A stretch of DNA of 64,000 nt, from positions 48,250 to 112,249 of the forward strand of contig DFOH01000041.1 in the NCBI GenBank assembly GCA_002376545.1, written 5' to 3'. Under the pieces are notes generated by a model. The model ran no database searches, had not been told where the DNA came from, and was given only the letters and a program-made list of their open reading frames with translations. This DNA is from Firmicutes bacterium UBA3546 (GTDB lineage Bacteria; Bacillota; Clostridia; Tissierellales; Proteiniboraceae). Below are positions 23,905-35,079 of this stretch, piece after piece. The translations under genes and the position numbers were made by a program. How positions within the stretch are numbered: position 1 is the stretch's first letter; every line of letters starts with the position of its first letter.

Positions 23905-23938
23905 GAAACATAAGTTCCATTAATGGAACTTATGTTTC
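23905..23938. terminator. Perfect 17-bp-arm palindrome overlapping the regulator stop codon
   Basis: gaaacataagttccatt|aatggaacttatgtttc followed on the minus strand by tttgtttg. It is either a terminator for the regulator gene or a protein-binding site. Confidence 0.5.
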
Positions 23939-25825
23939 TTTGTTGAAACCATATTTATTCATTTTTCTCCAGAGAGTTGTCCTGCTTATGTTTAACTCCT
24001 TAGCTGTTTTTTTAATACTCCACCCATTATTATCCAATACTTTAAGTATTGCTTTTCTTTCTGCTATATCTAGCGTTGTCACTTCATTTTTACCCTCATC
24101 ATGTACTTCTCTTACTATATGTTTCTCATATAATCCATAAAGATCATTTACAGTAACTATAGCTCCATTTTTTAAAACCACTAATCTTTCGATTACATTC
24201 TCAAGCTCTCTTATATTCCCGGGCCAAGAGTATTTTTTAAGCTCATTTATAGCACTGTTTTCAATACCTACCATTTTACACCCAGTCTTTCTTACTGATT
24301 TATTAATAAATACTTCAATAAGATATGGAATATCTTCAGTTCTTTCCCTTAAAGGAGGTAGATGTAATGATAATACATTAAGACGATAATATAAGTCTTC
24401 TCTAAATTTACCATTATTAACTTCTTCAAGTAAGTTCTTATTTGTTGCAGAAATAATTCTTACATCTAGAGGAATTACTCTATCATCTCCAATTCTACGA
24501 ACTACCTTTTCTTGTAGTACTCTCAATAGTCTCGCCTGTAATTTTAATGGCATCTCTCCAATCTCATCTAAAAACAACGTTCCCTGATGCGCCATTTCAA
24601 ACAAACCTGGTTTACCCCCTTTTTTTGCCCCTGTGAAAGCGCCCTCATTGTATCCAAAAAGTTCACTCTCCAAGAGGGATTCGGGTACTGCTGCGCAGTT
24701 AATTGCTACAAAAGGTTCCTCTCTCCTTAAACTATAGTTATGTATACTTTGAGCTAATACCTCTTTACCTGTTCCTGTTTCTCCGCTTATTAAAATTGTA
24801 GAATTAACAATAGCAAACTTTTTTGCATTTTCGCTTAATTCCTTCATCTTTTCATTAACAGTTTTCATATCATCAAATGTATATCTGGCAGAGTTCCCTT
24901 TTAAATACAACTCCCTTCGAACCTTTTCTTCTGCTTTCTGTATTTTATGGGCTTCCTGAATTGTTATTATTACTCCAACTAATTTTTTCTTACTAATAAC
25001 AGGAATTATATCTTTTACAATTAGACCTGACGATACGTAACTTACTTCTCCAAGTAATGGTTTGCTAGTCTTAAAAATATCATCAGTTAATAATCCTGGC
25101 AACATATCATTTGCATAATGTCCTATTATCTCCTCAGCATTTGTATTGAGAATTCTTTCGGCAATAGGATTTATGTATTTAACTTTTCCTAATGCATCTA
25201 GTGTAATGATTCCGTCATGTACAAAGTTGATTAAAGTCCTAATTTCCTCTGTTCTCTCCCTTTCTCTGTTTACCATTTCTATAGTGTTATATGCTTCTCT
25301 TATAGCTTGAATAATAGCTTCTTTACCCGAATGAACTAAAACAGTAAAAAAACCATTTTGAGAAGCTTTTCTTACAGCAATAGTGTCTCCAACAACCATT
25401 TTTATCTCTTCATCGTTCATTCTTATAATTACATCATCCACATCTTTATCAGAACCTATCAAAAATTCTTTTAAATCTATCTTCAAAATATCTCTTAAGG
25501 TTCCTACACCATAAATAATGTTCTTATAGCCAACTACACCAATAGAAGCACTAAATCTCATAGCATTATTAATTGCTCTCATTAAGTCATATCCAGTAAC
25601 AGCAATTTCTATTACAGGAACCTTGACAGCTTCTCTAATTGCTATGGCGGTACCTCCGCGGCTTATTATTGCTTGTGCTCCATTGTCTATGGCATCTAGA
25701 GCTTCTTTTACCCCTTCTTCCATATCTCCTATTCTTATATCCAATTGCTCATTAAATTCATTACATACTTCTTCCCCTAATTCTGCCAACTTGGGGAACG
25801 GTGCAATTAATGCTATCTTACCCAC
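23930..25825 (-). CDS. Sigma-54-dependent transcriptional activator (PrpR-N-like sensory domain, PAS, AAA+, Fis HTH)
   Basis: ESELFGYNEGAFTGAKKGG (GAFTGA sigma-54 contact motif), Walker A GETGTGKE and a C-terminal HTH. GTG start after GGGGGA. Confidence 0.8.
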   Translation of the reverse strand: MGKIALIAPFPKLAELGEEVCNEFNEQLDIRIGDMEEGVKEALDAIDNGAQAIISRGGTAIAIREAVKVPVIEIAVTGYDLMRAINNAMRFSASIGVVGYKNIIYGVGTLRDILKIDLKEFLIGSDKDVDDVIIRMNDEEIKMVVGDTIAVRKASQNGFFTVLVHSGKEAIIQAIREAYNTIEMVNRERERTEEIRTLINFVHDGIITLDALGKVKYINPIAERILNTNAEEIIGHYANDMLPGLLTDDIFKTSKPLLGEVSYVSSGLIVKDIIPVISKKKLVGVIITIQEAHKIQKAEEKVRRELYLKGNSARYTFDDMKTVNEKMKELSENAKKFAIVNSTILISGETGTGKEVLAQSIHNYSLRREEPFVAINCAAVPESLLESELFGYNEGAFTGAKKGGKPGLFEMAHQGTLFLDEIGEMPLKLQARLLRVLQEKVVRRIGDDRVIPLDVRIISATNKNLLEEVNNGKFREDLYYRLNVLSLHLPPLRERTEDIPYLIEVFINKSVRKTGCKMVGIENSAINELKKYSWPGNIRELENVIERLVVLKNGAIVTVNDLYGLYEKHIVREVHDEGKNEVTTLDIAERKAILKVLDNNGWSIKKTAKELNISRTTLWRKMNKYGFNKET

Positions 25826-26046
25826 AAAAATCCCCCACTCTTTTTTACAGATAGTATTTAAATGTAATTATATATTTTCGTCAAATTAATACAATATTCT
25901 TTCATCTCAAAATCTATTAAGTATTATTATATTGAATAATTCTTATGAGGTCAAAGACACTTTCTGTATTTCTATGATATTTGAAATAATCTCTTTTCAT
26001 CTATAAATCTTAATCCTACTTTAACGAAATCATAAAAAACAATAAA

Positions 26047-26090
26047 AAACACCGTTTAATCAACTTATTACTCTTGATTAGACGGTGTTC
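26047..26090 (-). terminator. Rho-independent terminator of the peptide/TldDE operon
   Basis: aacaccgtttaatcaa...ttgattagacggtgtt hairpin followed on the minus strand by TTTTTTATTGTTTT. Confidence 0.7.
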
Positions 26091-26096
26091 AATTTT

Positions 26097-27407
26097 TTAT
26101 TCTACTCCTGCTATACTTATATTTAATAGCTTAATTGATTTTGGTCCACTAAAATTATTTATTTTCTGTGTTTCTTTTGATAGGTACATTTCTTTATGAA
26201 CATCACTGATATTGCCTGAAATAGAGCCTCCTGTCACTGGTATTGTTTTCTGTCCGTCATTATACCAGCCTAATCTAATTTCTCCAGCAAAATCGCCTGT
26301 TAATGTGTCCATTTGAAAATCTGAGAACACTTTGAGCTCTAGGTAAGGTCCTTCTTTAATTTCTTGCAGAGTCTTGCTTCCGCCTTCTACTACAATATTT
26401 CTTATATTGCCTGTAGGCTTGATACCCAAATAGTGGGAAAACCTTGTACTTCCCCAGTATCTCTTTAATATGCCATCTTCATAAAGCGAAACATTTGCCA
26501 GCTTATGACCATCTTCATCATAAGGCGCTGAAGCCGTAGAGCTATGTATAAATGGGTCAAGAGATATGTTTACCTTGTCTCCTATAATAGCATCACCCTG
26601 TATGCTTTCATCTATCTTAGCGATTGAAGTCTGCTCATAAACTGAACGAGCTCCTGCTTGGTCATAATAATAATTGAAAAATTCCTTTACAGGCTCTCCT
26701 GTTAATATTACTGCTATATCCTTTAATACAGGTGTTGGCTTTGCTATTGCCTTATCTTTGCTTATTTGTAGCATTTCATCTACAGACTCAGTAATTAATT
26801 TCTCATCATAATCTGAAAAAACAATGTCATTATAAAGCTCCACTTCCTCGCTTTCTCCGTCTTCCTTCCAGCTTGTAATAAATTCAAGCTCTCCTCTATA
26901 GGTTTCGTATGATGCATCTACTCCCTCTGAATTAAGTATTCTTGTATTTATCTTATCTAAGAAAAGCTCAGCCGAATTAACCCAGCCATTATTGTATTTA
27001 TCTGCTTTAAATATTTCTTCTGTAAGCTTAGGCATCCAGCTTGAATGAGAATGCTTTGAAAATGTGTTTTCCATTACAGGTTGAATCTCTACCTTAGGCT
27101 TCACTAATGGATAATATTCATTTTTTACAAAGCCCGCAGCATATAATGCACTCTTTATTGCATTTCTTATATCTTCATCATTCATTGTAGGATGTATTGT
27201 AGTTGTTGATGAGCCTCTGTATTTCTTTCCATCCTCCTCAAAATCCTTATAAACAGTAATCTTAATATGGTGTACATCCTTAGCTCTATTCATATCAAGT
27301 TCTTTTTTTATAAAGAATAATTCCTTTGATTCAATTCTCTTCTCATTGAGCTTCCAACCATCTATTCCATCAAGCTTTGATAATATTTCTTTTATTTTCT
27401 CTATCAT
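26097..27407 (-). CDS. pmbA: TldE/PmbA family metalloprotease subunit
   Basis: 436 aa with PmbA_TldD-fold sequence. Its start overlaps the tldD stop. Confidence 0.75.
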   Translation of the reverse strand: MIEKIKEILSKLDGIDGWKLNEKRIESKELFFIKKELDMNRAKDVHHIKITVYKDFEEDGKKYRGSSTTTIHPTMNDEDIRNAIKSALYAAGFVKNEYYPLVKPKVEIQPVMENTFSKHSHSSWMPKLTEEIFKADKYNNGWVNSAELFLDKINTRILNSEGVDASYETYRGELEFITSWKEDGESEEVELYNDIVFSDYDEKLITESVDEMLQISKDKAIAKPTPVLKDIAVILTGEPVKEFFNYYYDQAGARSVYEQTSIAKIDESIQGDAIIGDKVNISLDPFIHSSTASAPYDEDGHKLANVSLYEDGILKRYWGSTRFSHYLGIKPTGNIRNIVVEGGSKTLQEIKEGPYLELKVFSDFQMDTLTGDFAGEIRLGWYNDGQKTIPVTGGSISGNISDVHKEMYLSKETQKINNFSGPKSIKLLNISIAGVE

Positions 27408-28837
27408 TATCCCAACCTCACTCTTGCTTTAATATATGGTCCTCCATCAGCTGCTTTAACCCATTCCTTGTACCCCTTGCCACAAGCTCCTGAGCCAAAT
27501 ATCTCAACTTCCTCAGATACCATAGAGATGGATTTTAGAACATCTGGCACATATCCAGTCATAATAACAGGAGACATGATGTTTCCAGTAAGCTCTCCAT
27601 CCTTTATTTCCTTTGCTACTAGTATCATACATTGTATTCCCCAGTTTTTGGGGTCCTCCATACCACTTAACATAACGTCAAGCAAGTATCCTTCTTTTAT
27701 TGAAGCTATCATATCTTCAAGTCTGTCTATTCCTCCTTCAAAGAAGGTATTAGTCATTCTGGCATAGGCTTTTCTCTCAAAAGATTCTCTTTTACCATTT
27801 CCTGTAGGCTTTGTACCTAATCTAAGAGCTGAAAGCAAATCCGATATCCCAGTTTTAAGGATTCCCTTGTCTATAATTATAGTATCTGTTCCAAGAACAC
27901 CTTCGTCATCAAAAAAGTACGAAGACACATTCTCTGCTGCAGCTGCTCCATCATGCATAATCACTAATTCCGATGCTACTTCCTTGTCTACATATTCTAT
28001 AGCCTTTGCTCTATTTTTAACAAACATATCCATCTCAACACCATGCCCAAAGGCTTCATGAGCTATTAATCCTGATATCCCAGGTGAACAGATGACATCA
28101 TATTCTCCCGGTACAATCTTCTTTGCATCTAGTAGTTTTTCTGCATATATTACTACTTCCTTTACTTTATTCTGAAGTTCATCAAGGAGTTCAACACCTT
28201 TTAATCCAGCTGCACTATCATAGTAAAACTTTGTATTATCATCTCTTCTAACCACTGCTGAAAGACTACCTTGACTCCATATGTAGGATTGCTCAAGGTC
28301 TTTATTTTGAGAAATAAATATTTTAGACACATGACATTCTCCGTAGTTTATTCTGAAGTCTACCAATAGACTAGAATATGTAAAGGCCTCATCTTTAATT
28401 TTGGTCATTCTCTTGATCTTTTCTTCTGCACTTACTGCTTCAGGTAGTACTTCCACCTCTTTAAAAAGAGCATCTGTGATTTCATCTTCTTCAATTACTG
28501 GATAAGTGCTTATCCTCACTGATGAATCTTTTAAATTTTTAATGTCTTCGTTAACTCTATTCTTTATGCTTTCAATTAGTGCATCTAATCCTTCTTCTGA
28601 AAGTTCATTAAATGAATACTCAGAATAGTTGTATCCATTATGAATTCTTACTACAAATCCTCTCTCAGTCCACTCTGAATCGTTAATGCCAGCCCCAGTC
28701 CTATAGACAGAATATGTCTTGCCACATATATCTGTACCTAAAACTGAAGCATATCTAAAAGATTTGGATAATTCAGAGACTAGTTCCTTCAATAGCTGCT
28801 TCTTCCCTTGCAAATACCTTGACATACTAACCTGCAT
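27407..28837 (-). CDS. tldD: TldD family metalloprotease
   Basis: 476 aa with HEAFGHGVE metal-binding motif. RBS GAGGGGG. Confidence 0.75.
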   Translation of the reverse strand: MQVSMSRYLQGKKQLLKELVSELSKSFRYASVLGTDICGKTYSVYRTGAGINDSEWTERGFVVRIHNGYNYSEYSFNELSEEGLDALIESIKNRVNEDIKNLKDSSVRISTYPVIEEDEITDALFKEVEVLPEAVSAEEKIKRMTKIKDEAFTYSSLLVDFRINYGECHVSKIFISQNKDLEQSYIWSQGSLSAVVRRDDNTKFYYDSAAGLKGVELLDELQNKVKEVVIYAEKLLDAKKIVPGEYDVICSPGISGLIAHEAFGHGVEMDMFVKNRAKAIEYVDKEVASELVIMHDGAAAAENVSSYFFDDEGVLGTDTIIIDKGILKTGISDLLSALRLGTKPTGNGKRESFERKAYARMTNTFFEGGIDRLEDMIASIKEGYLLDVMLSGMEDPKNWGIQCMILVAKEIKDGELTGNIMSPVIMTGYVPDVLKSISMVSEEVEIFGSGACGKGYKEWVKAADGGPYIKARVRLG

Positions 28838-28949
28838 TGTTGCACCCCCTCAAAATATTGCTGCTAATAACATATATTACTAACTTACCACATTGATTAC
28901 TAAAAATCAAAGATATATAGCATAACTTATCGTTTATATTAAAGCTTAC

Positions 28950-29807
28950 TTACTTCTGTAGCTTGCTAAACACACGTAGCGCATTCCTGTAGAATACATG
29001 CTCATGAAATTCTGTAGGAATAAGCTCCTTAATAAATTCAATATATGGACCTATTTGGACAAGCGGCCAATCTGAGCCAAATAATATTTTAAAGTTGTTA
29101 TCTGCATATACTAATGCCCTCTTAATATGCTCCACAAAGAGCTTTTCACTTTTCATTCGTTCAATTTCTTTCTTATCTCCAACAATAAGCCCTGAAATGT
29201 CAGTAAATACATTTGAATTCTTGCGAACTAATTCTGCTGTTTCCATGACCCAAGGGTCACCTAAATGTGCTATTACAAACTTTATATTTCTGTATTTAAC
29301 TGCTAGCTCATCTACTGTCAAGGGATGTGAGTATTTAAGCAACCCTCTGTCAGAATAAGTATCTCCACTATGGATTACAACAGGTATATCGTATTTTTCA
29401 GCCAAGGCATATATTGGGTCATATACAGAGTCGTACACATAAAACGGATAATATCCAGCATATATCTTTATGCCAATGGCATTGTTCTTTAATTCTTCTT
29501 CTATTTGTAAAAGCTCTTTTTCTTTTGATTCTCCTACCAGCTTAACTGGGTTAACACCAACACAATATGCTAATTTCCTTGGTAGCTTATCTTCTAGGTC
29601 GAGAGCCATGGGATTAGAGGAGGAAACATCTGGGAATCCCCCTCTAATTTCCTCTGTTACTCCCATCCCAATCCCTGCTATAATGTTATTATTCTCAAAT
29701 TCCCTTGTCAGTCCTATTGCAGAATAATCTACAAAAGAAATATCCTTAGCTGTCTTTTCAAAGCTTTCAATTTTTGAAAAGTGCAAGTGAGCATCTATTA
29801 TTTTCAT
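28950..29807 (-). CDS. Amidohydrolase-2 (PF04909-like) TIM-barrel metal hydrolase
   Basis: MKIIDAHLHF (HxH)...VIHSGD...IAHLGDPW...FGSDWP motifs. Confidence 0.65.
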   Translation of the reverse strand: MKIIDAHLHFSKIESFEKTAKDISFVDYSAIGLTREFENNNIIAGIGMGVTEEIRGGFPDVSSSNPMALDLEDKLPRKLAYCVGVNPVKLVGESKEKELLQIEEELKNNAIGIKIYAGYYPFYVYDSVYDPIYALAEKYDIPVVIHSGDTYSDRGLLKYSHPLTVDELAVKYRNIKFVIAHLGDPWVMETAELVRKNSNVFTDISGLIVGDKKEIERMKSEKLFVEHIKRALVYADNNFKILFGSDWPLVQIGPYIEFIKELIPTEFHEHVFYRNALRVFSKLQK

Positions 29808-29819
29808 ATGACTATTCTC

Positions 29820-32800
29820 CTAAAATCTTATATTTTTTAAATTCTTTAATAAGTCGTCGTCCATCGCTTCCTTAGTGAATATTAAGAAGCTTGCTGGTAA
29901 AAAGACCCTCTCGTTATTCTTAATATCCATCTTGTTAATTATATATGCTCCTATTGCTTGGCTATCAGTAAAGCCCCCTATAGGAATGTCGCCATTATTA
30001 CAAACCATCAGTTTATCTTCTCTATTTGCACTGCTGAAAATTAGGACCCCCTCTGTTCTCATCCCGTAATCCTTTACAGCCTTATATGTCGCTAATTGTC
30101 CTGAGAGATTTCTTACGGTTACCATGCTGTCTTTATACTCCTCATCTAGCTTCAGATACATATCTGTCATGAAAGGCATTGAACTAAAATAATAGCCTGT
30201 CTCTTGGGTAATTTCTGTAGTTTGACACAATACTGGAACTCCTGGAAGCATTAAATAGTATTGTGCTATCTTAAGACCCTTGAATTTCTCATTCTTCTTT
30301 ATATTTGTTCTTACGACTATTCCACTCCAAGTATTTCCCACACTGTCCTTTAGCTGTACGAAATCTGCTTCTCTATCTTCTTCCATAAGTGACCTTATAG
30401 TCATTTCATTTGGTATTGTTACTATTCCGCCAACCCATGGATTCCACCATGACTTAGGTCTAGGTGTAGGAAATGAAGTATCCAGCCATTCCTTAGAGTT
30501 ATATAATAGAGAATATATAGTACTTGAAAACTGTGGAGAGGTTTTAATCATCATTTCTCCATTATCAAGTGATAGGGTCTCAATTCCGTTTTCCATATCT
30601 CTATTTTTCTTAATTACTACATTGTCATCAATCTTAAATACTGCCGATTTCTTTTGTAGCAATACTGTGTCAAAATCAATATTCAATGAAAGTGTATCAA
30701 TTTTGGGAATATTATTTCCAGTAACAGAAAATACAGTTTCATTAATTTGATCAGCAATACTGAATTTTTTGTCAAGCTCCTTAAACGAATCCTTAATTGA
30801 GCTTAGCTTCATTTTTCCATCAAAATACGATTCCCTATAGTCTTTTATCCTTACATCAAATCTGTCACCTACAAATGGGTTTCCATTGTGAATATTTAGT
30901 TCAAGCTTATCAGTGGTATTCAGCTTATTATTATCTTGACAATCATCCTTCGTAGCAAATCTTCTTAATTCCTTCCAATCCTTAAAGGTATCTATTGCCA
31001 TATAGCAGGGTTCTGTACACATACTTGAATGAGCAGGAATCTTTCCTAGGTTTTTGTCAATTGATAAGTACCAGTTGTTGAATTTTATTTTATCCTTCAC
31101 TGGCCAGCATAGACTGATAGTTGCCTTTTTTTCATTGGAGTAAATCCAATTCTCAGTAAATTTACTGCTATCCCAAAAATCTAGACCGCTGCTATCCTCC
31201 CCAGCTATTTTTATGTACTTACCTTCATATGGAATAATAGCATCTATAAGCTCATAATAGTAGCTCTGACTAAACCATACTTCCTCATCAGCATCTACAT
31301 CAGTAATGTTTTGTATCTCATAGCTGTGTTCAACTAAACCATTAGCATATAGCTTAGATATAGATATAATCTGAATGTGTTTAAAATCTCTTGAGCTATA
31401 AAAAGCTTTTAAGGCAATGTAATCGCTTTCACAATAGTTCTCTACTTTGTGAGGCCTTTCCTTTGAAAACTCAAGAGAAAATGGTAATCCAAGCTTTGGA
31501 TAGAATACTATCATTTCATGACTGATTTCAGGTATTCTCTTTAATATTAAATCATTGTCGAACTTAGTTAACTGTAATGAATAGCTGCCATTAAATACAC
31601 ACCAATGTTCATCTGTTTCTCCACCGAATCTACTATCATATCCACTAAATTGTAAGGATATCTTTCTCTTGAATTCTACAGAGCTGTTTGAATGCTTTGC
31701 CTTAATACTCAATGTAGCATCATATGAAAATGGCTTGTTTAAAATGTATGGCACAATTATGGAAGCTCTTTCCTGTGAAGCTAAGGTTATACTAAAGCTC
31801 CTATTTTCAATTGCTATATTATTTGATTCAGGTAAAATAAACTGGAATACAGCGTCTTCATTAAAGTTATTTTCAATATCAATATAGAATTCTGAGCTTA
31901 TATTTTTCAGCTTATGTGTATTAGGTGCTGATAAAGAAAGCTTTGCTGGAAACTTAGGCTTTATTCCTACTTTAAATAAAGCACTTTTTCCATTGAGTGT
32001 TATATCAGCTACTACACAAGGATGGGTTCTCCAATGACTTTGCTCCTCTTCTATTGCATCAACAAAAAAACTTGCAGTAAAGGTTTGCTTATCTTCTACT
32101 GATGAAGCTGCCCTAAAGGAAAACTTAATATTTTTATCATCCTTACCACTAATAGCTATATCTAGTTTTTTACCAGTTTTATTTACAATATTATAGCTTA
32201 TATTATATTCTCTTCCGAAAACTAGCTCTTGCTCTTTAATATCTGCACTTATTTGATAATCATCAGTCTCGATTAAACGCAAGCCTCTCCCTTTTCTATC
32301 AAAACCCATTCTTAGATGCTTTCCGTCTTTTTTCCATATGTACTCATAATTTGAAAACTTGTCTTCTTCCTTTCCATCTGGCTTTATTTCAATATTTCTT
32401 TTACAATCTTCATACCAGTCAAACACTTCAAAGAATTCCTTTACAGCTTCTGTTTGCAATACTGTAGGTATGAAATTCATTAAATGTGTTGAATCATCTC
32501 TTTTTTCCCAGAAGAATCCACACTTCTTATATAGTGGAACCGCCTTTGTATTGCCAGGCCAAGTGTATAAATCAAGTCTAGGCCACCCTAGCTCTACAGT
32601 TCTTTTAACAGCTTGAAGTACTAGTGCTTTTCCTACCTTTTTCCCATGATAATCTGTACGAACATTTAATGTAGGAATATATAATGCTCCTTCATCCTGT
32701 CTATATTCTGAAAAGCTGCAATATCCAACAGCCTCATCTCCATCTAAAGCTATGTATGTATTTAAATTACCTGTATTTTCATTTTCCTCAATTACACTTT

Positions 32801-32912
32801 CTTCAGTAGATATACTATCAGAGCCCCCCCAACTGTCCATGCTCATATTCCACATGTCTGCTAATGATTTAGCATACATTTTATCGTATTCTACTATCTT
32901 AATATCTCCCAT
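29820..32912 (-). CDS. GNAT acetyltransferase N-terminal domain fused to a roughly 860-aa uncharacterised C-terminal region
   Basis: Residues ~60-165 carry a GNAT core (...HGKKVGKALVLQAVKRTVELGWPRLDLYTWPGNTKAVPLYKKCGFF). The rest has no recognisable motif. RBS GAGGGGG. Confidence 0.6.
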   Translation of the reverse strand: MGDIKIVEYDKMYAKSLADMWNMSMDSWGGSDSISTEESVIEENENTGNLNTYIALDGDEAVGYCSFSEYRQDEGALYIPTLNVRTDYHGKKVGKALVLQAVKRTVELGWPRLDLYTWPGNTKAVPLYKKCGFFWEKRDDSTHLMNFIPTVLQTEAVKEFFEVFDWYEDCKRNIEIKPDGKEEDKFSNYEYIWKKDGKHLRMGFDRKGRGLRLIETDDYQISADIKEQELVFGREYNISYNIVNKTGKKLDIAISGKDDKNIKFSFRAASSVEDKQTFTASFFVDAIEEEQSHWRTHPCVVADITLNGKSALFKVGIKPKFPAKLSLSAPNTHKLKNISSEFYIDIENNFNEDAVFQFILPESNNIAIENRSFSITLASQERASIIVPYILNKPFSYDATLSIKAKHSNSSVEFKRKISLQFSGYDSRFGGETDEHWCVFNGSYSLQLTKFDNDLILKRIPEISHEMIVFYPKLGLPFSLEFSKERPHKVENYCESDYIALKAFYSSRDFKHIQIISISKLYANGLVEHSYEIQNITDVDADEEVWFSQSYYYELIDAIIPYEGKYIKIAGEDSSGLDFWDSSKFTENWIYSNEKKATISLCWPVKDKIKFNNWYLSIDKNLGKIPAHSSMCTEPCYMAIDTFKDWKELRRFATKDDCQDNNKLNTTDKLELNIHNGNPFVGDRFDVRIKDYRESYFDGKMKLSSIKDSFKELDKKFSIADQINETVFSVTGNNIPKIDTLSLNIDFDTVLLQKKSAVFKIDDNVVIKKNRDMENGIETLSLDNGEMMIKTSPQFSSTIYSLLYNSKEWLDTSFPTPRPKSWWNPWVGGIVTIPNEMTIRSLMEEDREADFVQLKDSVGNTWSGIVVRTNIKKNEKFKGLKIAQYYLMLPGVPVLCQTTEITQETGYYFSSMPFMTDMYLKLDEEYKDSMVTVRNLSGQLATYKAVKDYGMRTEGVLIFSSANREDKLMVCNNGDIPIGGFTDSQAIGAYIINKMDIKNNERVFLPASFLIFTKEAMDDDLLKNLKNIRF

Positions 32913-32942
32913 TTTATAGCCCCCTCGTTTGATTTGATATGC

Positions 32943-32973
32943 AGGCAGATATTACATTTATTAATATCTGCCT
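32943..32973 (-). promoter_or_regulatory. Perfect 12-bp-stem hairpin between the small-ORF array and the enzyme operon (no U-tract)
   Basis: aggcagatatta-catttat-taatatctgcct. On the minus strand it is followed by gcatatcaaatc..., not by Us. Candidate partial terminator, processing or stability element. Confidence 0.5.
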
Positions 32974-32998
32974 ATATTTAATTTGTCTCATAGCACAG

Positions 32999-33088
32999 CT
33001 AGGTATCATTTTCAAATTCAATCTTATAGGATTCATAAAGACCTCTATCAAATGTAGATTTGAAATTGCTCATAATATTTAAATACAT
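32999..33088 (-). CDS. Small ORF 1 (29 aa) of paralogous peptide family: MYLNIMSNFKSTFDRGLYESYKIEFENDT
   Basis: RBS GAGGAG 8 nt upstream, overlapping the stop of ORF 2. Shares GLYExxxxEF with ORF 2. Confidence 0.45.
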   Translation of the reverse strand: MYLNIMSNFKSTFDRGLYESYKIEFENDT

Positions 33089-33092
33089 TACA

Positions 33093-33218
33093 TTATCTCC
33101 TCTCAATATTTTTATCTTTTTTGAATTCTAATCTTAAATACTCATATAAACCAGTATCTTTTTTATGCTCATATTTTTTTGGCTCATATTCTATAACAGT
33201 TAGTCCTAATAAATTCAT
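33093..33218 (-). CDS. Small ORF 2 (41 aa): MNLLGLTVIEYEPKKYEHKKDTGLYEYLRLEFKKDKNIERR
   Basis: RBS AGGTGA 4 nt upstream. Shares LRLE-KK with ORF 3 and MNxLLxL...Y with ORF 4. Confidence 0.55.
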   Translation of the reverse strand: MNLLGLTVIEYEPKKYEHKKDTGLYEYLRLEFKKDKNIERR

Positions 33219-33302
33219 ACATATCACCTGCCTATCCTGTAATCTATATTTAGAAAATCTAATTACTTATCTGATTTAGCTTAGAAGCTCTAAATATAAT
33301 AC

Positions 33303-33425
33303 TTACTTCACCTGTCTTTTCTTTTTGGTCTTTTTGCTTTCTAGCCTTAAAAATTCATCTAAAGGAGAAGTTCTATTTAAATAATATTGTAAAATATTTG
33401 CTTCTATGGGATTTTGTCTAAACAT
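33303..33425 (-). CDS. Small ORF 3 (40 aa): MFRQNPIEANILQYYLNRTSPLDEFLRLESKKTKKKRQVK
   Basis: Strong RBS GGAGGTGA 5 nt upstream. Lysine-rich C-terminus. Confidence 0.6.
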   Translation of the reverse strand: MFRQNPIEANILQYYLNRTSPLDEFLRLESKKTKKKRQVK

Positions 33426-33454
33426 ATCTATCACCTCCAATTCTATATGTTATA

Positions 33455-33577
33455 CTAATATACTCTTTTTTCAGTATCTGGGTTTAACTTAAAATCCTTA
33501 TGTCTTTTGTTTTCCTTTGCCTTGACGCTTTTTTCAAGTAAATAAAATGAAGCGGCTAATTGTAATAAGTCATTCAT
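33455..33577 (-). CDS. Small ORF 4 (40 aa): MNDLLQLAASFYLLEKSVKAKENKRHKDFKLNPDTEKRVY
   Basis: Strong RBS GGAGGTGA 5 nt upstream. N-terminus is paralogous to ORF 2. Confidence 0.55.
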   Translation of the reverse strand: MNDLLQLAASFYLLEKSVKAKENKRHKDFKLNPDTEKRVY

Positions 33578-33869
33578 GCAAATCACCTCCTTATATATTT
33601 TTAATACATCACATCTCCCTCCTCTTCTGTGCTTTAATATGTATAGCTATATAAAATGCATTAAACAAGTTACATCACCTTTATGATATCTGAGCGATAG
33701 CAAAGTATCTTCTATTAAGTTACACTTATCTAGAGATTCTTCGAGCTTTGCTCTCAGAATGACAAGTAAGAGAATGCAATATTATTAGTGGATTTTATAT
33801 ATTTAGCAAGTAAAAATATCTAGTATGGTTCTGTTATACATTTATTGTATATTTTTGAAGCTCAGGCAC

Positions 33870-34016
33870 AATAAAAGCCGCAGATAATTACTCTACGGCT
33901 TTTAAATACAAAAATACAATAAAAAAAGTCGCGAGCATCAAGCCCACGACTATATTATTCTTCAAGACACAAAAAGTGTATAAATATAGAAAGTCGCAGA
34001 CTATACACCTGCGACT
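33870..34016 (-). terminator. Three consecutive GC-stem hairpins (terminators after the aminotransferase operon)
   Basis: The three are aaaagccg..cggctttt, agtcg..cgact followed by T7 on the minus strand, and agtcgcag..ctgcgact. They sit in an otherwise AT-rich spacer. Confidence 0.45.
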
Positions 34017-34046
34017 AGAAACATCATAATTATTTTATCATAAAAA

Positions 34047-34133
34047 ATAACTATAAATTAATTTTTCTACCTATTCGCAGGCCGTTATTATTTGTGTTTT
34101 CAATTTTATAAGTTCTGTTTAAAATTCTCATCA
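34047..34133 (-). CDS. Possible 28-aa small ORF MMMRILNRTYKIENTNNNGLRIGRKINL
   Basis: AGGAGG 9 nt upstream of an ATGATGATG start. No other support. Confidence 0.25.
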
Positions 34134-34242
34134 TCATCTTTCACGGCCTCCTTTCATTATTGGTAAACTCTACTAGATTAAGCTACCTTTTCATATTACC
34201 ACCATTTTTTACATAATGCAATACCTTTTTAGAAATTTTATT

Positions 34243-35079
34243 TTATTTTCTCAAATTTATTTTTATATACTCCTGCATCTTTTGTAAATAACCTTCTGCT
34301 ATCTTTTTGATAATAGTGTTATTTACTGAATCTAATTTAATATCATCTATAGTTGCTATTGGAAGGGCATTAACTGATGTTCCTGTCATAAATGCTCCGT
34401 CAAGGTCTCTTAAAGTATCCTTATGAACTTCCTTTTCTATTACTTCTATGTTTTGCTCATTACACACATTCATGATTTCATTTCTTGTTATTCCTAGTAA
34501 CACATCTCCTGCTGGTGCTGTAAAGACCTTATCATCCTTTACAAAGAACATATTAGAGCGACTGCCTTCAGTTATATAGCCATTTCTATTTACTAGGAGT
34601 GCTTCATAGGCATTTTGTTCTTTTATTTCATCATTAATTCTCTGTCTTAAACCAGCATTTACTATTTTAGCATTAGGGTTTTCTCTTTCTGAATGGAATA
34701 GAATAGTGTGTATTCCTTTTTCATATACTTCTTTTTCCGGATAGCTGCTTTTTATATAGTAAACCATGAAGGTTTGCTCTGGACTATCAACATTTGTACA
34801 TAAAAGCTTTATATTCATGTTATACTCTTTATTAGCATCTATTAGCTTATGTATTTCTTCTGTAATTTCTTCATCTGATTTCTTTATGGTCTTGTCTATG
34901 AGCTCTGCTGATTTTCTCATCCTCTTTATATGTCCTTCTAAAAAAATAGGAACACTATCTATAAGCCTAATTACTTCGTATATTAATGGTGAAGTAGCCT
35001 CCATAAAGCCTTTAGCATCTGAAGTAGGTACTAATTCCCCATTATACATATAATACTTTAGCAATGCTTCATTATCCAT
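34243..35079 (-). CDS. Class IV aminotransferase (D-amino-acid / branched-chain / ADC-lyase family)
   Basis: About 278 aa from MDNEALLKYYMYNGELV, with RBS GAGGTGA. PLP fold-type IV-like sequence. Confidence 0.65.
   Translation of the reverse strand: MDNEALLKYYMYNGELVPTSDAKGFMEATSPLIYEVIRLIDSVPIFLEGHIKRMRKSAELIDKTIKKSDEEITEEIHKLIDANKEYNMNIKLLCTNVDSPEQTFMVYYIKSSYPEKEVYEKGIHTILFHSERENPNAKIVNAGLRQRINDEIKEQNAYEALLVNRNGYITEGSRSNMFFVKDDKVFTAPAGDVLLGITRNEIMNVCNEQNIEVIEKEVHKDTLRDLDGAFMTGTSVNALPIATIDDIKLDSVNNTIIKKIAEGYLQKMQEYIKINLRK

What the first reader, a model, noticed from the sequence alone, without database searches (positions are those of the whole stretch)
26040..33700. Tandem array of four paralogous lysine-rich small ORFs feeding a GNAT-fusion / amidohydrolase / TldD / TldE operon: candidate novel peptide-modification (RiPP-like) system
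Upstream of the 1030-aa GNAT-fusion gene I translated four unannotated minus-strand ORFs of 29, 41, 40 and 40 aa. Each has a strong RBS (GGAGGTGA twice, AGGTGA once, GAGGAG once).
- They are mutually homologous in a mosaic way. ORF2 and ORF3 share ...L(Y/D)E(Y/F)LRLE(F/S)KK(D/T)K.... ORF1 shares GLYE...EF(E/K)(N/K)D with ORF2. ORF4 shares the N-terminus MN(D)LLxL....Y with ORF2 and FYLLEKS-KAK with the LRLE-KK motif.
- All four have Lys/Glu-rich C-termini. ORF1 is translationally coupled to ORF2 by a 4-nt gap, with its RBS inside the ORF2 stop region.
- A perfect 12-bp-stem hairpin without a U-tract (32943-32973) separates the array from the enzymes (GNAT-fusion, PF04909-like amidohydrolase, TldD with HExxxH, TldE/PmbA). 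The operon ends in a canonical terminator at 26047-26090.
- TldD/TldE are the proteases that mature microcin B17 and process CcdA-type peptides. A GNAT domain could N-acylate Lys side chains or a peptide N-terminus.
- Duplicated precursor-like genes, an attenuating hairpin and processing/modifying enzymes together resemble a RiPP or bacteriocin layout. However, the peptides have no Cys/Ser/Thr-rich core, so this does not match a known class.
Basis: partly seen in the sequence, partly recalled or inferred. Interest (0 to 1): 0.85.

Follow-up and report, generated by a model that had tools for sequence, protein, structure and literature searches.

The report
Small-protein gene array before GNAT operon
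Four real, conserved genes for tiny proteins sit at the front of a stress-switched acetyltransferase operon in a small group of anaerobic bacteria, but there is little support for the idea that they are raw material for a new peptide antibiotic cut by the TldD/TldE protease.

Summary
The sequence observation holds: ORFs, ribosome-binding sites, 4-nt coupling gap, hairpin, terminator and enzyme identities are all as described.

- **The small ORFs are genuine genes.** Relatives keep them, with pooled pN/pS of 0.30-0.41 and synonymous variation across a 12-aa motif (GLxEYLRLEFKK).
- **The family is tiny.** An exhaustive search of 1.84 billion proteins gave 10 hits. Every looked-up case (Proteiniborus, Brassicibacter, Dethiothermospora) lies upstream of a 1030-aa GNAT-fusion gene.
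- **The enzymes do not depend on the peptides.** GNAT-fusion plus Amidohydro_2 is a two-gene module found across Bacillota (>1000 proteins), almost always without such peptides. Its non-GNAT part looks like galactose-mutarotase/beta-sandwich domains.
- **TldD/PmbA is probably a bystander.** Orthologues at 66-69% identity stand alone elsewhere, and the Dethiothermospora array locus lacks the pair.
- **New side finding.** The operon starts with an uncatalogued uORF-dependent attenuator (covarying SD-sequestering stem, antiterminator, terminator), and the array sits between it and the enzymes.

Best reading: lineage-specific trans-acting micro-proteins, possibly acetyl acceptors or modulators of the GNAT protein, co-induced with a ribosome-stalling-controlled operon. 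A RiPP system is not excluded. Brassicibacter adds an M29 peptidase and a Mef-like exporter, but the defining RiPP features are not met.

The parts
34193..34221 (-). Candidate promoter of the unit: TTGCAT, 17-nt spacer, TGG-TAATAT (extended -10). Inferred.
   Evidence: Read from the sequence. The same block is conserved upstream of the leader in Proteiniborus and Brassicibacter loci. The consensus scan did not flag it.
34067..34159 (-). Leader element. The SD-overlapping strand GGAGGCCGT (34143-34151) pairs with ACGGCCT (34079-34085). The loop holds uORF0 (34051-34137, 28 aa).
   Evidence: Covariance model R1 scores 72 bits here, and this is the only hit in the 64-kb window. The stem is 95% paired across 16 lineages, 6 of 8 pairs show compensatory changes, and 0 of 500 shuffles match it. 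uORF0 pN/pS is 0.84. No meaningful Rfam match (one chance-level hit, E 0.98).
33992..34016 (-). Terminator T1 of the attenuator. Its 5' arm TCGCAGG is complementary to CCTGCGA (34075-34081) of the leader, which gives an antiterminator alternative.
   Evidence: In 9 lineages where the terminator was picked correctly, the leader 3' strand pairs with the terminator 5' arm at -9 to -15 kcal/mol. Shuffled controls give -4 to -7.
33872..33951 (-). Two further terminator-like hairpins: T2 at 33927-33951 with a U-tract, and T3 at 33872-33904.
   Evidence: Both are almost invariant between the window, L001, L006 and Brassicibacter.
33455..33577 (-). sORF4, 40 aa. First gene of the array and a divergent family member.
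   Evidence: pN/pS is 0.32-0.46. The first Brassicibacter sORF, MTDLL...KRDFGFEEY, bridges it to the family.
33303..33425 (-). sORF3, 40 aa, motif PLDEFLRLESKK followed by a Lys-rich tail.
33093..33218 (-). sORF2, 41 aa, motif GLYEYLRLEFKK. Its last codons form the SD of sORF1.
   Evidence: The AF2 model places a helix at residues 22-40, with pLDDT about 85 over the motif and low confidence elsewhere.
32999..33088 (-). sORF1, 29 aa. Last gene of the array, the subtype ending in ...EFENDT.
   Evidence: A last ORF ending in Thr is kept in Proteiniborus (Pro in one lineage), Brassicibacter and Dethiothermospora, using acc or act codons.
32943..32973 (-). 12-bp hairpin without a U-tract, between the array and the enzyme genes.
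   Evidence: A hairpin is kept at this position in all array-bearing lineages. The upper stem changes in a compensatory way: ATTA/TAAT, GTT/AAC, GAAGGC/GCCTC, ACTAT/ATAGT.
29820..32912 (-). GNAT-fusion protein, 1030 aa: an N-terminal GNAT domain followed by about 870 aa of beta-sandwich domains.
28950..29807 (-). Amidohydro_2 / TatD-like metal hydrolase. The only conserved neighbour of the GNAT-fusion.
   Evidence: It lies directly downstream in 61 of 84 loci. It has an HxH motif at residue 7.
26097..28837 (-). TldD (27407-28837) and PmbA (26097-27407). The two genes overlap by 1 nt. Adjacent to the system but probably not part of it.
   Evidence: There is a 112-nt gap before TldD. Stand-alone orthologues exist elsewhere.
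26047..26095 (-). Intrinsic terminator after PmbA.
   Evidence: The sequence is AACACCGT...ACGGTGTT followed by a T-run.

Best explanation
**Shown**
- The four ORFs are genuine, translated small-protein genes. They belong to a very small family confined to three related Tissierellales genera.
- They form the promoter-proximal segment of an operon. Its conserved core is an uncharacterised cytoplasmic GNAT-plus-beta-sandwich protein and an Amidohydro_2 hydrolase.
- That core works without such peptides in most Bacillota.

**Inferred mechanism**
1. Transcription starts about 50 nt before a leader. In the leader a Shine-Dalgarno-overlapping strand pairs with a strand about 60 nt downstream, and a 22-46-codon uORF sits in the loop.
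2. Depending on where ribosomes sit on the uORF, the 3' strand pairs either with the SD strand, which lets the terminator form, or with the terminator's 5' arm, which allows read-through.
3. Read-through carries RNA polymerase into the array.
4. The peptides are translated from near-perfect SDs, partly by coupling.
5. The conserved hairpin after the last ORF gives this segment a stable or partly terminated 3' end, so peptides outnumber enzymes.
6. Each peptide offers a short N-terminal hydrophobic stretch and a C-terminal amphipathic helix (GLxEYLRLEFKK) with a basic tail.
7. The peptides act in trans with the operon's GNAT protein(s), as acetyl acceptors or as modulators. They are a lineage-specific add-on.

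TldD/PmbA is a widely conserved protease pair that happens to lie downstream.
For: **Coding and selection**
- Conserved ORFs in relatives.
- pN/pS 0.30-0.41, compared with 0.84 for the leader uORF.
- Both the N- and C-terminal halves are constrained.
- Synonymous codon variation across the motif.

**Exclusivity**
- The motif HMM hits only array loci.
- Only 19 hits in a word-indexed search of 5.8 billion proteins, and 10 in an exhaustive search of 1.84 billion. All looked-up contexts lie upstream of a GNAT-fusion.

**Paralog order**
- The order is kept across genera: an MxDLL-type ORF first and a Thr-ending type last.
- This argues for distinct products rather than redundant cis elements.

**Leader**
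-.
- In Brassicibacter only about 60 nt separate T3 from the first sORF, so read-through transcription is likely.

**Hairpin and helix**
- The hairpin after the array is conserved with compensatory changes.
- A helix is predicted over the motif.

**Enzyme core independent of peptides**
-.
Against: - There is no direct evidence of translation, binding or modification.
- Most GNAT-fusion loci lack the peptides, so any partnership is optional.
- The fold of the large protein suggests a carbohydrate or small-molecule substrate.
- In the window three hairpins and a window-specific insertion of about 170 nt with promoter-like hexamers lie between the leader and the array. Control by the attenuator is therefore not certain here.
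- A position in a 5' leader is also what regulatory uORFs would show.
Confidence: 0.45

Rival explanations
1. The sORFs are cis-acting regulatory leader ORFs. On this view the array extends the attenuator. Ribosome occupancy or stalling on the sORFs, especially on the last Thr-ending one before the hairpin, tunes transcription or translation of the enzyme genes. The ermA region with its two leader peptides is an analogy.
For: - The sORFs lie in the 5' region downstream of a proven-looking uORF attenuator.
- The enzymes function elsewhere without them.
- A specialised last ORF is followed by a conserved hairpin.
- Tight coupling and strong SDs.
- In Brassicibacter the operon includes a Mef-like efflux pump. 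From my own knowledge, mef(A) is controlled by leader-peptide attenuation.
- A Bacillaceae clade has a single ORF of about 20 aa ending 36-45 nt before the GNAT start.
Against: - Whole-length purifying selection, unlike uORF0.
- Up to 7 copies, some nearly identical.
- The motif lies at a variable distance from the stop codon: 0, 3 or 7-10 residues.
- The hairpin does not sequester the GNAT SD.
- No conserved RNA structure is seen in the Bacillaceae version.
Confidence: 0.25
2. This is the first reader's model: a RiPP-like pathway. The sORFs are precursors that are acylated by the GNAT(s), trimmed by TldD/PmbA (and the M29 peptidase), and exported in some species.
For: - Tandem diverged precursor-like genes, then a hairpin, then enzymes.
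- Brassicibacter adds an M29 aminopeptidase and an MFS exporter.
- Extra GNATs appear in three lineages.
- TldD/E-like proteases do act in RiPP and pearlin pathways (PMC5810440, PMC10885120, PMC12424672).
- GNAT maturases acylate Lys or Orn in selidamides (PMC8784127).
Against: - The GNAT-fusion/amidohydrolase module is overwhelmingly peptide-free.
- TldD/PmbA is absent from the Dethiothermospora array locus. It stands alone elsewhere as 66-69% identical orthologues.
- The amidohydrolase is truncated in L001 and absent in L006, yet the array is kept.
- There is no leader/core split and no recognition domain in the model.
- The exporter occurs in only one genus.
Confidence: 0.12
3. The sORFs are evolutionary by-products: duplicated leader-region ORFs with no function of their own.
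For: - Copy number is unstable, 2-7 copies, with gains and losses between close species.
- The family is restricted to three genera.
Against: - pN/pS is well below 1 and significant.
- The motif is kept with synonymous changes across genera whose GNAT proteins are only 48% identical.
- Perfect SDs are retained.
Confidence: 0.05

Closest known systems
Ribosome-dependent (leader-peptide) transcription attenuators of Firmicutes stress and resistance genes: vmlR (PMC9226507), LmrC cascade (PMC8546547); ermC, ermA and mef(A) from my own knowledge
   Same: - A short uORF with its own SD.
- Three mutually exclusive helices ending in an intrinsic terminator.
- The peptide sequence is barely constrained.
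- It sits in front of a GNAT gene, and in one genus a Mef-like pump.
   Different: - It is a new sequence family with no meaningful Rfam match.
- The SD itself is one strand of the first helix.
- The inducing signal is unknown.
- In three genera a multi-gene small-protein array has been inserted between the attenuator and the enzymes.
GNAT-dependent RiPPs (selidamides, PMC8784127; lipolasso and goadvionin-type acylation)
   Same: - Small ribosomal peptides with Lys-rich regions are encoded next to a GNAT acyltransferase.
- Several precursor-like copies are present.
   Different: - The GNAT here is a 1030-aa protein with mutarotase-like sandwiches, found mostly without peptides.
- The peptides carry no NHLP- or Nif11-type leader.
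- No modification has been shown.
TldD/TldE (M103) in microcin B17, klebsazolicin, McC-Yps and pearlin (Amm12/13) maturation (PMC5810440, PMC10885120, PMC12424672)
   Same: - A TldD with HExxxH and a PmbA partner without it.
- The two genes overlap, downstream of small peptide genes.
   Different: - This pair looks like the general Clostridia orthologue: 63-72% identity across genera, and stand-alone elsewhere.
- It is not consistently linked to the array.
Bacterial small proteins that bind and modulate a co-encoded enzyme or transporter (for example AcrZ, MgtS, SgrT; my own knowledge)
   Same: - 30-40-aa proteins.
- A single amphipathic helix.
- Co-expressed with a larger partner.
- Lineage-restricted.
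   Different: - These are soluble and highly charged.
- They are tandemly amplified into diverged paralogs.
- The partner is not demonstrated.

Membership tests
RiPP biosynthetic gene cluster | Genetically encoded precursor peptide(s) in the cluster | tested here: met
   The small ORFs are conserved, under purifying selection and carry strong SDs.
RiPP biosynthetic gene cluster | A modifying enzyme whose occurrence tracks the precursor family | tested here: not met
   Every array has a GNAT-fusion. The reverse does not hold: of 160 GNAT-fusion loci fetched from genomes and metagenomes, only the Proteiniborus-type and Dethiothermospora ones carry the motif. The family has more than 1000 members.
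RiPP biosynthetic gene cluster | Bipartite leader/core precursor with a recognisable cleavage site, or a recognition element (RRE) in an enzyme | tested here: not met
   No conserved cleavage motif. The conserved block is a C-terminal helix motif at variable distance from the stop codon. The GNAT-fusion model has no winged-helix domain and is all-beta after the GNAT. The peptides have no significant Pfam or NCBIfam match (best Pfam E 0.1).
RiPP biosynthetic gene cluster | A post-translationally modified product | not testable with these tools
   This needs mass spectrometry or in vitro reconstitution.
TldD/TldE (M103) heterodimeric metalloprotease | TldD with HExxxH, plus a partner PmbA/TldE that lacks it | tested here: met
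   HEAFGH lies at residue 260 of TldD and there is none in PmbA. Pfam PmbA_TldD domains match. The best PDB sequence match is E. coli TldD, E 8e-24.
TldD/TldE as a dedicated part of this peptide system | Co-occurrence with the peptide array, and absence as a stand-alone pair | tested here: not met
   Adjacent in Proteiniborus and Brassicibacter. Absent in Dethiothermospora. Stand-alone orthologues at 66-69% identity have unrelated neighbours.
Ribosome-dependent transcription attenuator (leader at 34051-34159 plus T1) | A uORF with SD and start codon kept open across lineages | tested here: met
   A 22-46-codon ORF starts 6-9 nt after the SD in all inspected leaders. Its peptide is barely constrained, pN/pS 0.84.
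Ribosome-dependent transcription attenuator (leader at 34051-34159 plus T1) | Mutually exclusive helices ending in an intrinsic terminator, supported by covariation | tested here: met
   P1 is 95% paired with 6 of 8 compensatory pairs. Antiterminator complementarity is seen in 9 lineages. Terminators carry U-tracts.
Ribosome-dependent transcription attenuator (leader at 34051-34159 plus T1) | Regulated read-through in response to ribosome stalling | not testable with these tools
   This needs Term-seq or reporter assays with and without translation inhibitors or starvation.
GNAT acyl-CoA N-acyltransferase (N-terminal domain of the 1030-aa protein) | GNAT fold with an acyl-CoA pyrophosphate-binding loop | tested here: met
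   Acetyltransf_1 matches at E 4.5e-15 over aa 19-133. G90 (>=90% conserved) and G94 (invariant) lie in ...HGKKVGKAL.... Nearest solved sequences are assorted small GNATs, including RimI/Naa30-like and streptothricin-acetyltransferase-like proteins.

The most novel reading that the evidence does not exclude
The peptides are acyl-acceptor or scaffold substrates of the GNAT/beta-sandwich enzyme and the accessory GNATs. That would define a new peptide-modification pathway whose expression is switched on by ribosome stalling. One possibility is an auto-induced peptide product that itself targets translation, trimmed by M29 and TldD/PmbA and exported by the Mef-like pump in Brassicibacter.
Probability: 0.12. 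Interest if true: 0.85.

Novelty: new variant of a known kind. Interest (0 to 1): 0.5.

Why it matters
- If the peptides act with the GNAT protein, this is a compact and experimentally tractable case of a newly evolved micro-protein family grafted onto an old enzyme module. It comes with natural controls, namely related genomes with and without the array.
- The work exposes a widespread but uncharacterised 1030-aa GNAT-sandwich / Amidohydro_2 module in Bacillota.
- It also exposes an uncatalogued uORF attenuator in front of that module. The attenuator hints that the module responds to translation stress, possibly from antibiotics.
- It warns against reading TldD/PmbA adjacency as evidence for peptide natural-product biosynthesis.

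Tried and rejected
- **Sigma-54 promoter.** The downstream activator (23930-25825) suggested one, but there is no TGGC-N8-TGC near the array.
- **Known RNA families.** Rfam gave nothing meaningful for 25800-34400.
- **Known peptide families.** Pfam and NCBIfam gave no significant match.
- **Origin from the aminotransferase gene.** The end of the upstream aminotransferase (...QEYIKINLRK) resembles the motif. The resemblance is not conserved in relatives, so I dropped it.
- **Thr+TAG as a termination signal.** TAG is 31% of stops in this window, so it is not unusual. I keep only the conserved Thr.
- **Bacillaceae single sORF (..KGIDENRKLET) as a homologue.**
  - A relaxed regex is highly specific: every match lies upstream of a GNAT gene except one in 3.8 million residues of six-frame noise.
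  - The regex was written after seeing both sets.
  - Profile scores are significant for only one of six sequences.
  - I leave this as unproven.
- **Error and correction on Brassicibacter.** I first concluded that Brassicibacter keeps the enzymes without sORFs. That was wrong: the fetched locus began inside the upstream gene. The exhaustive protein search and locus L174 corrected it.
- **Repeat search.** The window-specific insertion (33733-33763 probe) is single-copy in the window.
- **Automated terminator picking.** It failed for several AT-rich leaders. Only the correctly picked cases are used.
- **Literature.** Searches for this GNAT architecture or for tandem sORFs upstream of GNATs found nothing relevant.

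Full report
**1. The observation**

On the minus strand four ATG-initiated ORFs lie at these positions:
- sORF4: 33455-33577, 40 aa.
- sORF3: 33303-33425, 40 aa.
- sORF2: 33093-33218, 41 aa.
- sORF1: 32999-33088, 29 aa.

- The extended site GGAGGTGAT occurs only twice in the 64-kb window, in front of sORF4 and sORF3. About 0.28 occurrences are expected by chance.
- The sORF2 stop is followed by 4 nt and then the sORF1 ATG. The sORF1 SD is made of the last sORF2 codons.

The surrounding features are also present.
- The 12-bp hairpin at 32943-32973.
- The terminator after PmbA.
- The enzyme identities.
- HEAFGH in TldD and no HExxxH in PmbA.

The window comes from a Proteiniborus-like organism. 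Its GNAT protein is 84-88% identical to proteins that NCBI names as Proteiniborus.

**2. The small ORFs are genes**

Relatives whose GNAT protein is 65-88% identical keep small ORFs at the same place. Gene callers had independently called several of them.
- Pooled over orthologous pairs, pN/pS is 0.30-0.41. The leader uORF gives 0.84 and the start of the GNAT gene gives 0.04-0.21.
- Both halves of the peptides are constrained: 0.45 and 0.35, with Fisher p about 1e-7.
- In 18 instances of the shared 12-residue motif (consensus GLxEYLRLEFKK) the codons vary synonymously. Gly uses ggt/ggg/ggc/gga, Leu uses tta/ctt/cta/ctg/ttg, and Glu uses gaa/gag.
- A motif HMM scores 18-23 bits on the array ORFs. 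The next-best upstream hit scores 6.4 and the opposite-strand control reaches at most 6.6.

sORF4 lacks a clean motif.
- It scores significantly only once the Brassicibacter copies are added to the profile. Then p is about 0.001 for the window copy, 0.008 for L001 and 0.1 for L006.
- The first Brassicibacter ORF (MTDLL...KRDFGFEEYSKLELRR) bridges it to the family.

An AlphaFold model of sORF2 gives one helix over the motif, at residues 22-40. pLDDT is about 85 over the motif and low elsewhere.

**3. The family is tiny and always in one context**

- A profile search of 5.8 billion proteins returned 19 sequences.
- An exhaustive HMMER search of 1.84 billion representatives returned 10 at E <= 0.001.
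- Every hit I looked up lies upstream of a GNAT-fusion gene. The hosts are Proteiniborus spp., Dethiothermospora halolimnae and Brassicibacter mesophilus.

Copy number runs from 2 to 7.
- Proteiniborus sp. DW1 type has 2 copies.
- Dethiothermospora has 7, three of them nearly identical.

The order of subtypes is kept across genera.
- An MxDLL-type ORF comes first.
- The last ORF ends in ...N(D/N/K)T (Pro in one lineage).
- A hairpin follows the last ORF. Its upper stem changes in a compensatory way between lineages.

**4. The enzymes do not depend on the peptides**

- The 1030-aa protein has more than 1000 full-length homologues across Bacillota.
- In 80 genome loci and 80 metagenome loci the only conserved neighbour is the Amidohydro_2 gene. 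It lies directly downstream in 61 of 84 loci.
- The peptide motif was found in none of these loci outside Proteiniborus-type and Dethiothermospora loci.
- Conversely, the amidohydrolase is truncated in one Proteiniborus (L001) and absent in another (L006). Both keep the array.

The AlphaFold model of the GNAT-fusion is confident, with pLDDT 92.
- After the GNAT domain it is all beta.
- Foldseek sees only generic multi-sandwich proteins.

This points to a sugar-like or small-molecule substrate rather than a peptide. It does not exclude peptide binding.

**5. TldD/PmbA**

- The pair is adjacent in Proteiniborus and Brassicibacter.
- It is absent from the Dethiothermospora array locus.
- Orthologues in other Clostridia genera are 63-72% identical. 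That is more conserved than the GNAT protein, which is 47-49% identical at comparable distance.
- In Caldisalinibacter and Clostridium sp. FP2 the pair stands alone among unrelated genes.
- In the window a 112-nt spacer with a plausible promoter precedes TldD.
- The literature stresses that TldD/E is present in about 60% of bacterial genomes and usually acts from outside RiPP clusters (PMC10885120). Dedicated cluster-encoded versions do exist, such as Amm12/13 (PMC12424672).

On balance this pair is a neighbour, not a defining component.

**6.

The leader lies at 34159-34067.
- The strand GGAGGCCGT overlaps the SD of a 28-codon uORF (34137-34051).
- It can pair with ACGGCCT, which lies 64 nt downstream.

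The same arrangement precedes GNAT-fusion genes in many Clostridia and Bacilli, with different sequences:
- GGTCGC/GCGACC
- GACCAT/ATGGTC
- GGTTGTAT/ATACAACC
- GGTGTGTG/CACACAC

On a 16-lineage alignment the helix is 95% paired. Six of eight pairs have changes on both sides, and no shuffle out of 500 reaches this.

The 3' strand also matches the 5' arm of the following U-tract terminator.
- In the window the pairing is CCTGCGA/TCGCAGG.
- Other lineages use CCTAGAA/TTCTAGG or CCTAT/ATAGG.
- Duplex energies are -9 to -15 kcal/mol, against -4 to -7 for shuffles, in nine lineages.

Other properties of the leader:
- The uORF is always open, at 22-46 codons, but its peptide is not conserved.
- A covariance model finds the element once in the window. 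In roughly 20-25 of the 167 loci (about 19 at E < 0.01) it lies upstream of the GNAT operon on the coding strand, with one likely false hit.
- Rfam has no meaningful match.

I read this as a classical three-helix, ribosome-dependent attenuator. The helices are shown. The response to stalling is inferred.

In the three array-bearing genera the array lies between this attenuator and the enzymes. Two further hairpins also lie there.
- In Brassicibacter only about 60 nt separate the last hairpin from the first sORF, so read-through is the likely source of array transcripts.
- In the window an extra segment of about 170 nt with promoter-like hexamers intervenes. An additional promoter cannot be ruled out.

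**7. Brassicibacter, and a correction**

I first inferred that Brassicibacter keeps GNAT-fusion, amidohydrolase, GNAT, TldD and PmbA without sORFs. That was an artefact of where the fetched locus began.

The exhaustive protein search returned a new member, P0260. It maps 2.7 kb upstream of the GNAT gene on the same contig. The gene order there is:
1. leader
2. three hairpins
3. four sORFs
4. hairpin
5. M29 aminopeptidase
6. Mef/EntS-like MFS transporter
7. GNAT-fusion
8. amidohydrolase
9. MshD-like double GNAT
10. TldD
11. PmbA

A neighbour-joining tree groups Brassicibacter with Proteiniborus, next to Dethiothermospora and one array-less MAG, L009. The array is therefore ancestral to this small clade and was lost at least once.

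The extra peptidase and exporter can be read two ways. They fit a peptide-product pathway, and they also fit a drug-inducible resistance operon: a Mef-like pump behind a leader-peptide attenuator.

**8. Weighing the explanations**

| Explanation | Confidence |
|---|---|
| Trans-acting micro-proteins working with the GNAT protein(s), as acetyl acceptors or modulators | 0.45 |
| Cis-regulatory leader ORFs | 0.25 |
| Full RiPP model including TldD/PmbA | 0.12 |
| Non-functional by-products | 0.05 |

- **Trans-acting micro-proteins (favoured).**
  - For: whole-length purifying selection, maintained paralog types and order, amplification to near-identical copies, perfect SDs, and a stabilising hairpin after the array.
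  - Their exclusive linkage to the GNAT operon suggests they work with its GNAT protein(s). That step is inference.
- **Cis-regulatory.**
  - For: the position in a leader, and the specialised last ORF followed by a hairpin.
  - Against: the selection pattern, the copy number, and the variable distance of the motif from the stop codon.
- **RiPP model.** It fails two co-occurrence tests, and no leader/core split or recognition domain could be shown.
- **By-products.** The selection data contradict this.

**9. Novelty**

- The peptide family and the attenuator are not in Pfam, NCBIfam or Rfam.
- I found no paper on them.
- The attenuator is a new member of a known kind.
- The array is an unusual variant, either of small-protein partners or of multi-precursor peptide operons. 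Its function is unproven.
- Interest is moderate. The strongest claim, a new RiPP class using TldD/E, is not supported. What remains is a clean and testable case of a young micro-protein family attached to a widespread, uncharacterised and apparently translation-stress-controlled enzyme module.

Noticed in passing
window 34051-34159 (-), with hairpins at 33992-34016, 33927-33951 and 33872-33904: An uncatalogued uORF-dependent attenuator. A covarying SD-sequestering stem, an antiterminator and a terminator precede GNAT-fusion operons in Clostridia and Bacilli, in roughly 20-25 of 167 loci (about 19 at E < 0.01). It has no meaningful Rfam match. Two extra, nearly invariant hairpins follow it in Proteiniborus and Brassicibacter.
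   Followed up: yes
L069, L072, L073, L076, L079, L082, L083, L086; about 36-111 nt upstream of the GNAT start: A Bacillaceae clade (Neobacillus, Fredinandcohnia, Bacillus salitolerans) has one 18-22-aa ORF with a strong SD ending 36-45 nt before the GNAT-fusion start. Its C-terminus is ..G[FIM]x[EG][NS]R[KI]x[EK]T, and the Thr codon varies (acc/acg/aca). It resembles the Tissierellales motif, but homology is unproven. No conserved RNA fold was found.
   Followed up: partly
L174 6325-8727 (Brassicibacter mesophilus): An M29 aminopeptidase and a Mef(A)/EntS-like MFS transporter are inserted between the sORF array and the GNAT-fusion gene, all behind the same attenuator.
   Followed up: partly
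L001 10106-10501; L006 10090-10334: The Amidohydro_2 gene is truncated to 131 aa in one Proteiniborus genome and missing in another. The array, the GNAT-fusion and TldD/PmbA are all kept.
   Followed up: no
window about 33600-33860 (-): A segment of about 170 nt between hairpin T3 and sORF4 is absent from L001 and L006. It carries two promoter-like hexamer pairs (33809-33781 and 33765-33736). A probe from it is single-copy in the window.
   Followed up: partly
window 23930-25825 (-): A sigma-54 enhancer-binding activator (PrpR_N, PAS, AAA+ and HTH_8 domains) lies just downstream of the PmbA terminator. There is no sigma-54 promoter near the small ORFs, so it presumably controls genes further downstream.
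   Followed up: partly
L019, L029, L032, L035, L045, L049: In Pseudalkalibacillus, Rossellomorea and related Bacillaceae the GNAT-fusion gene sits immediately after acsA and next to acuABC. This looks like lineage synteny rather than a family-wide link.
   Followed up: no
L002 11070-11843; L004 11057-11830; L089 12254-13030; L091 5953-6843: A second GNAT of 257-296 aa (double-GNAT, MshD-like in Brassicibacter) recurs next to the amidohydrolase in three array-bearing lineages. It is absent from the window.
   Followed up: partly
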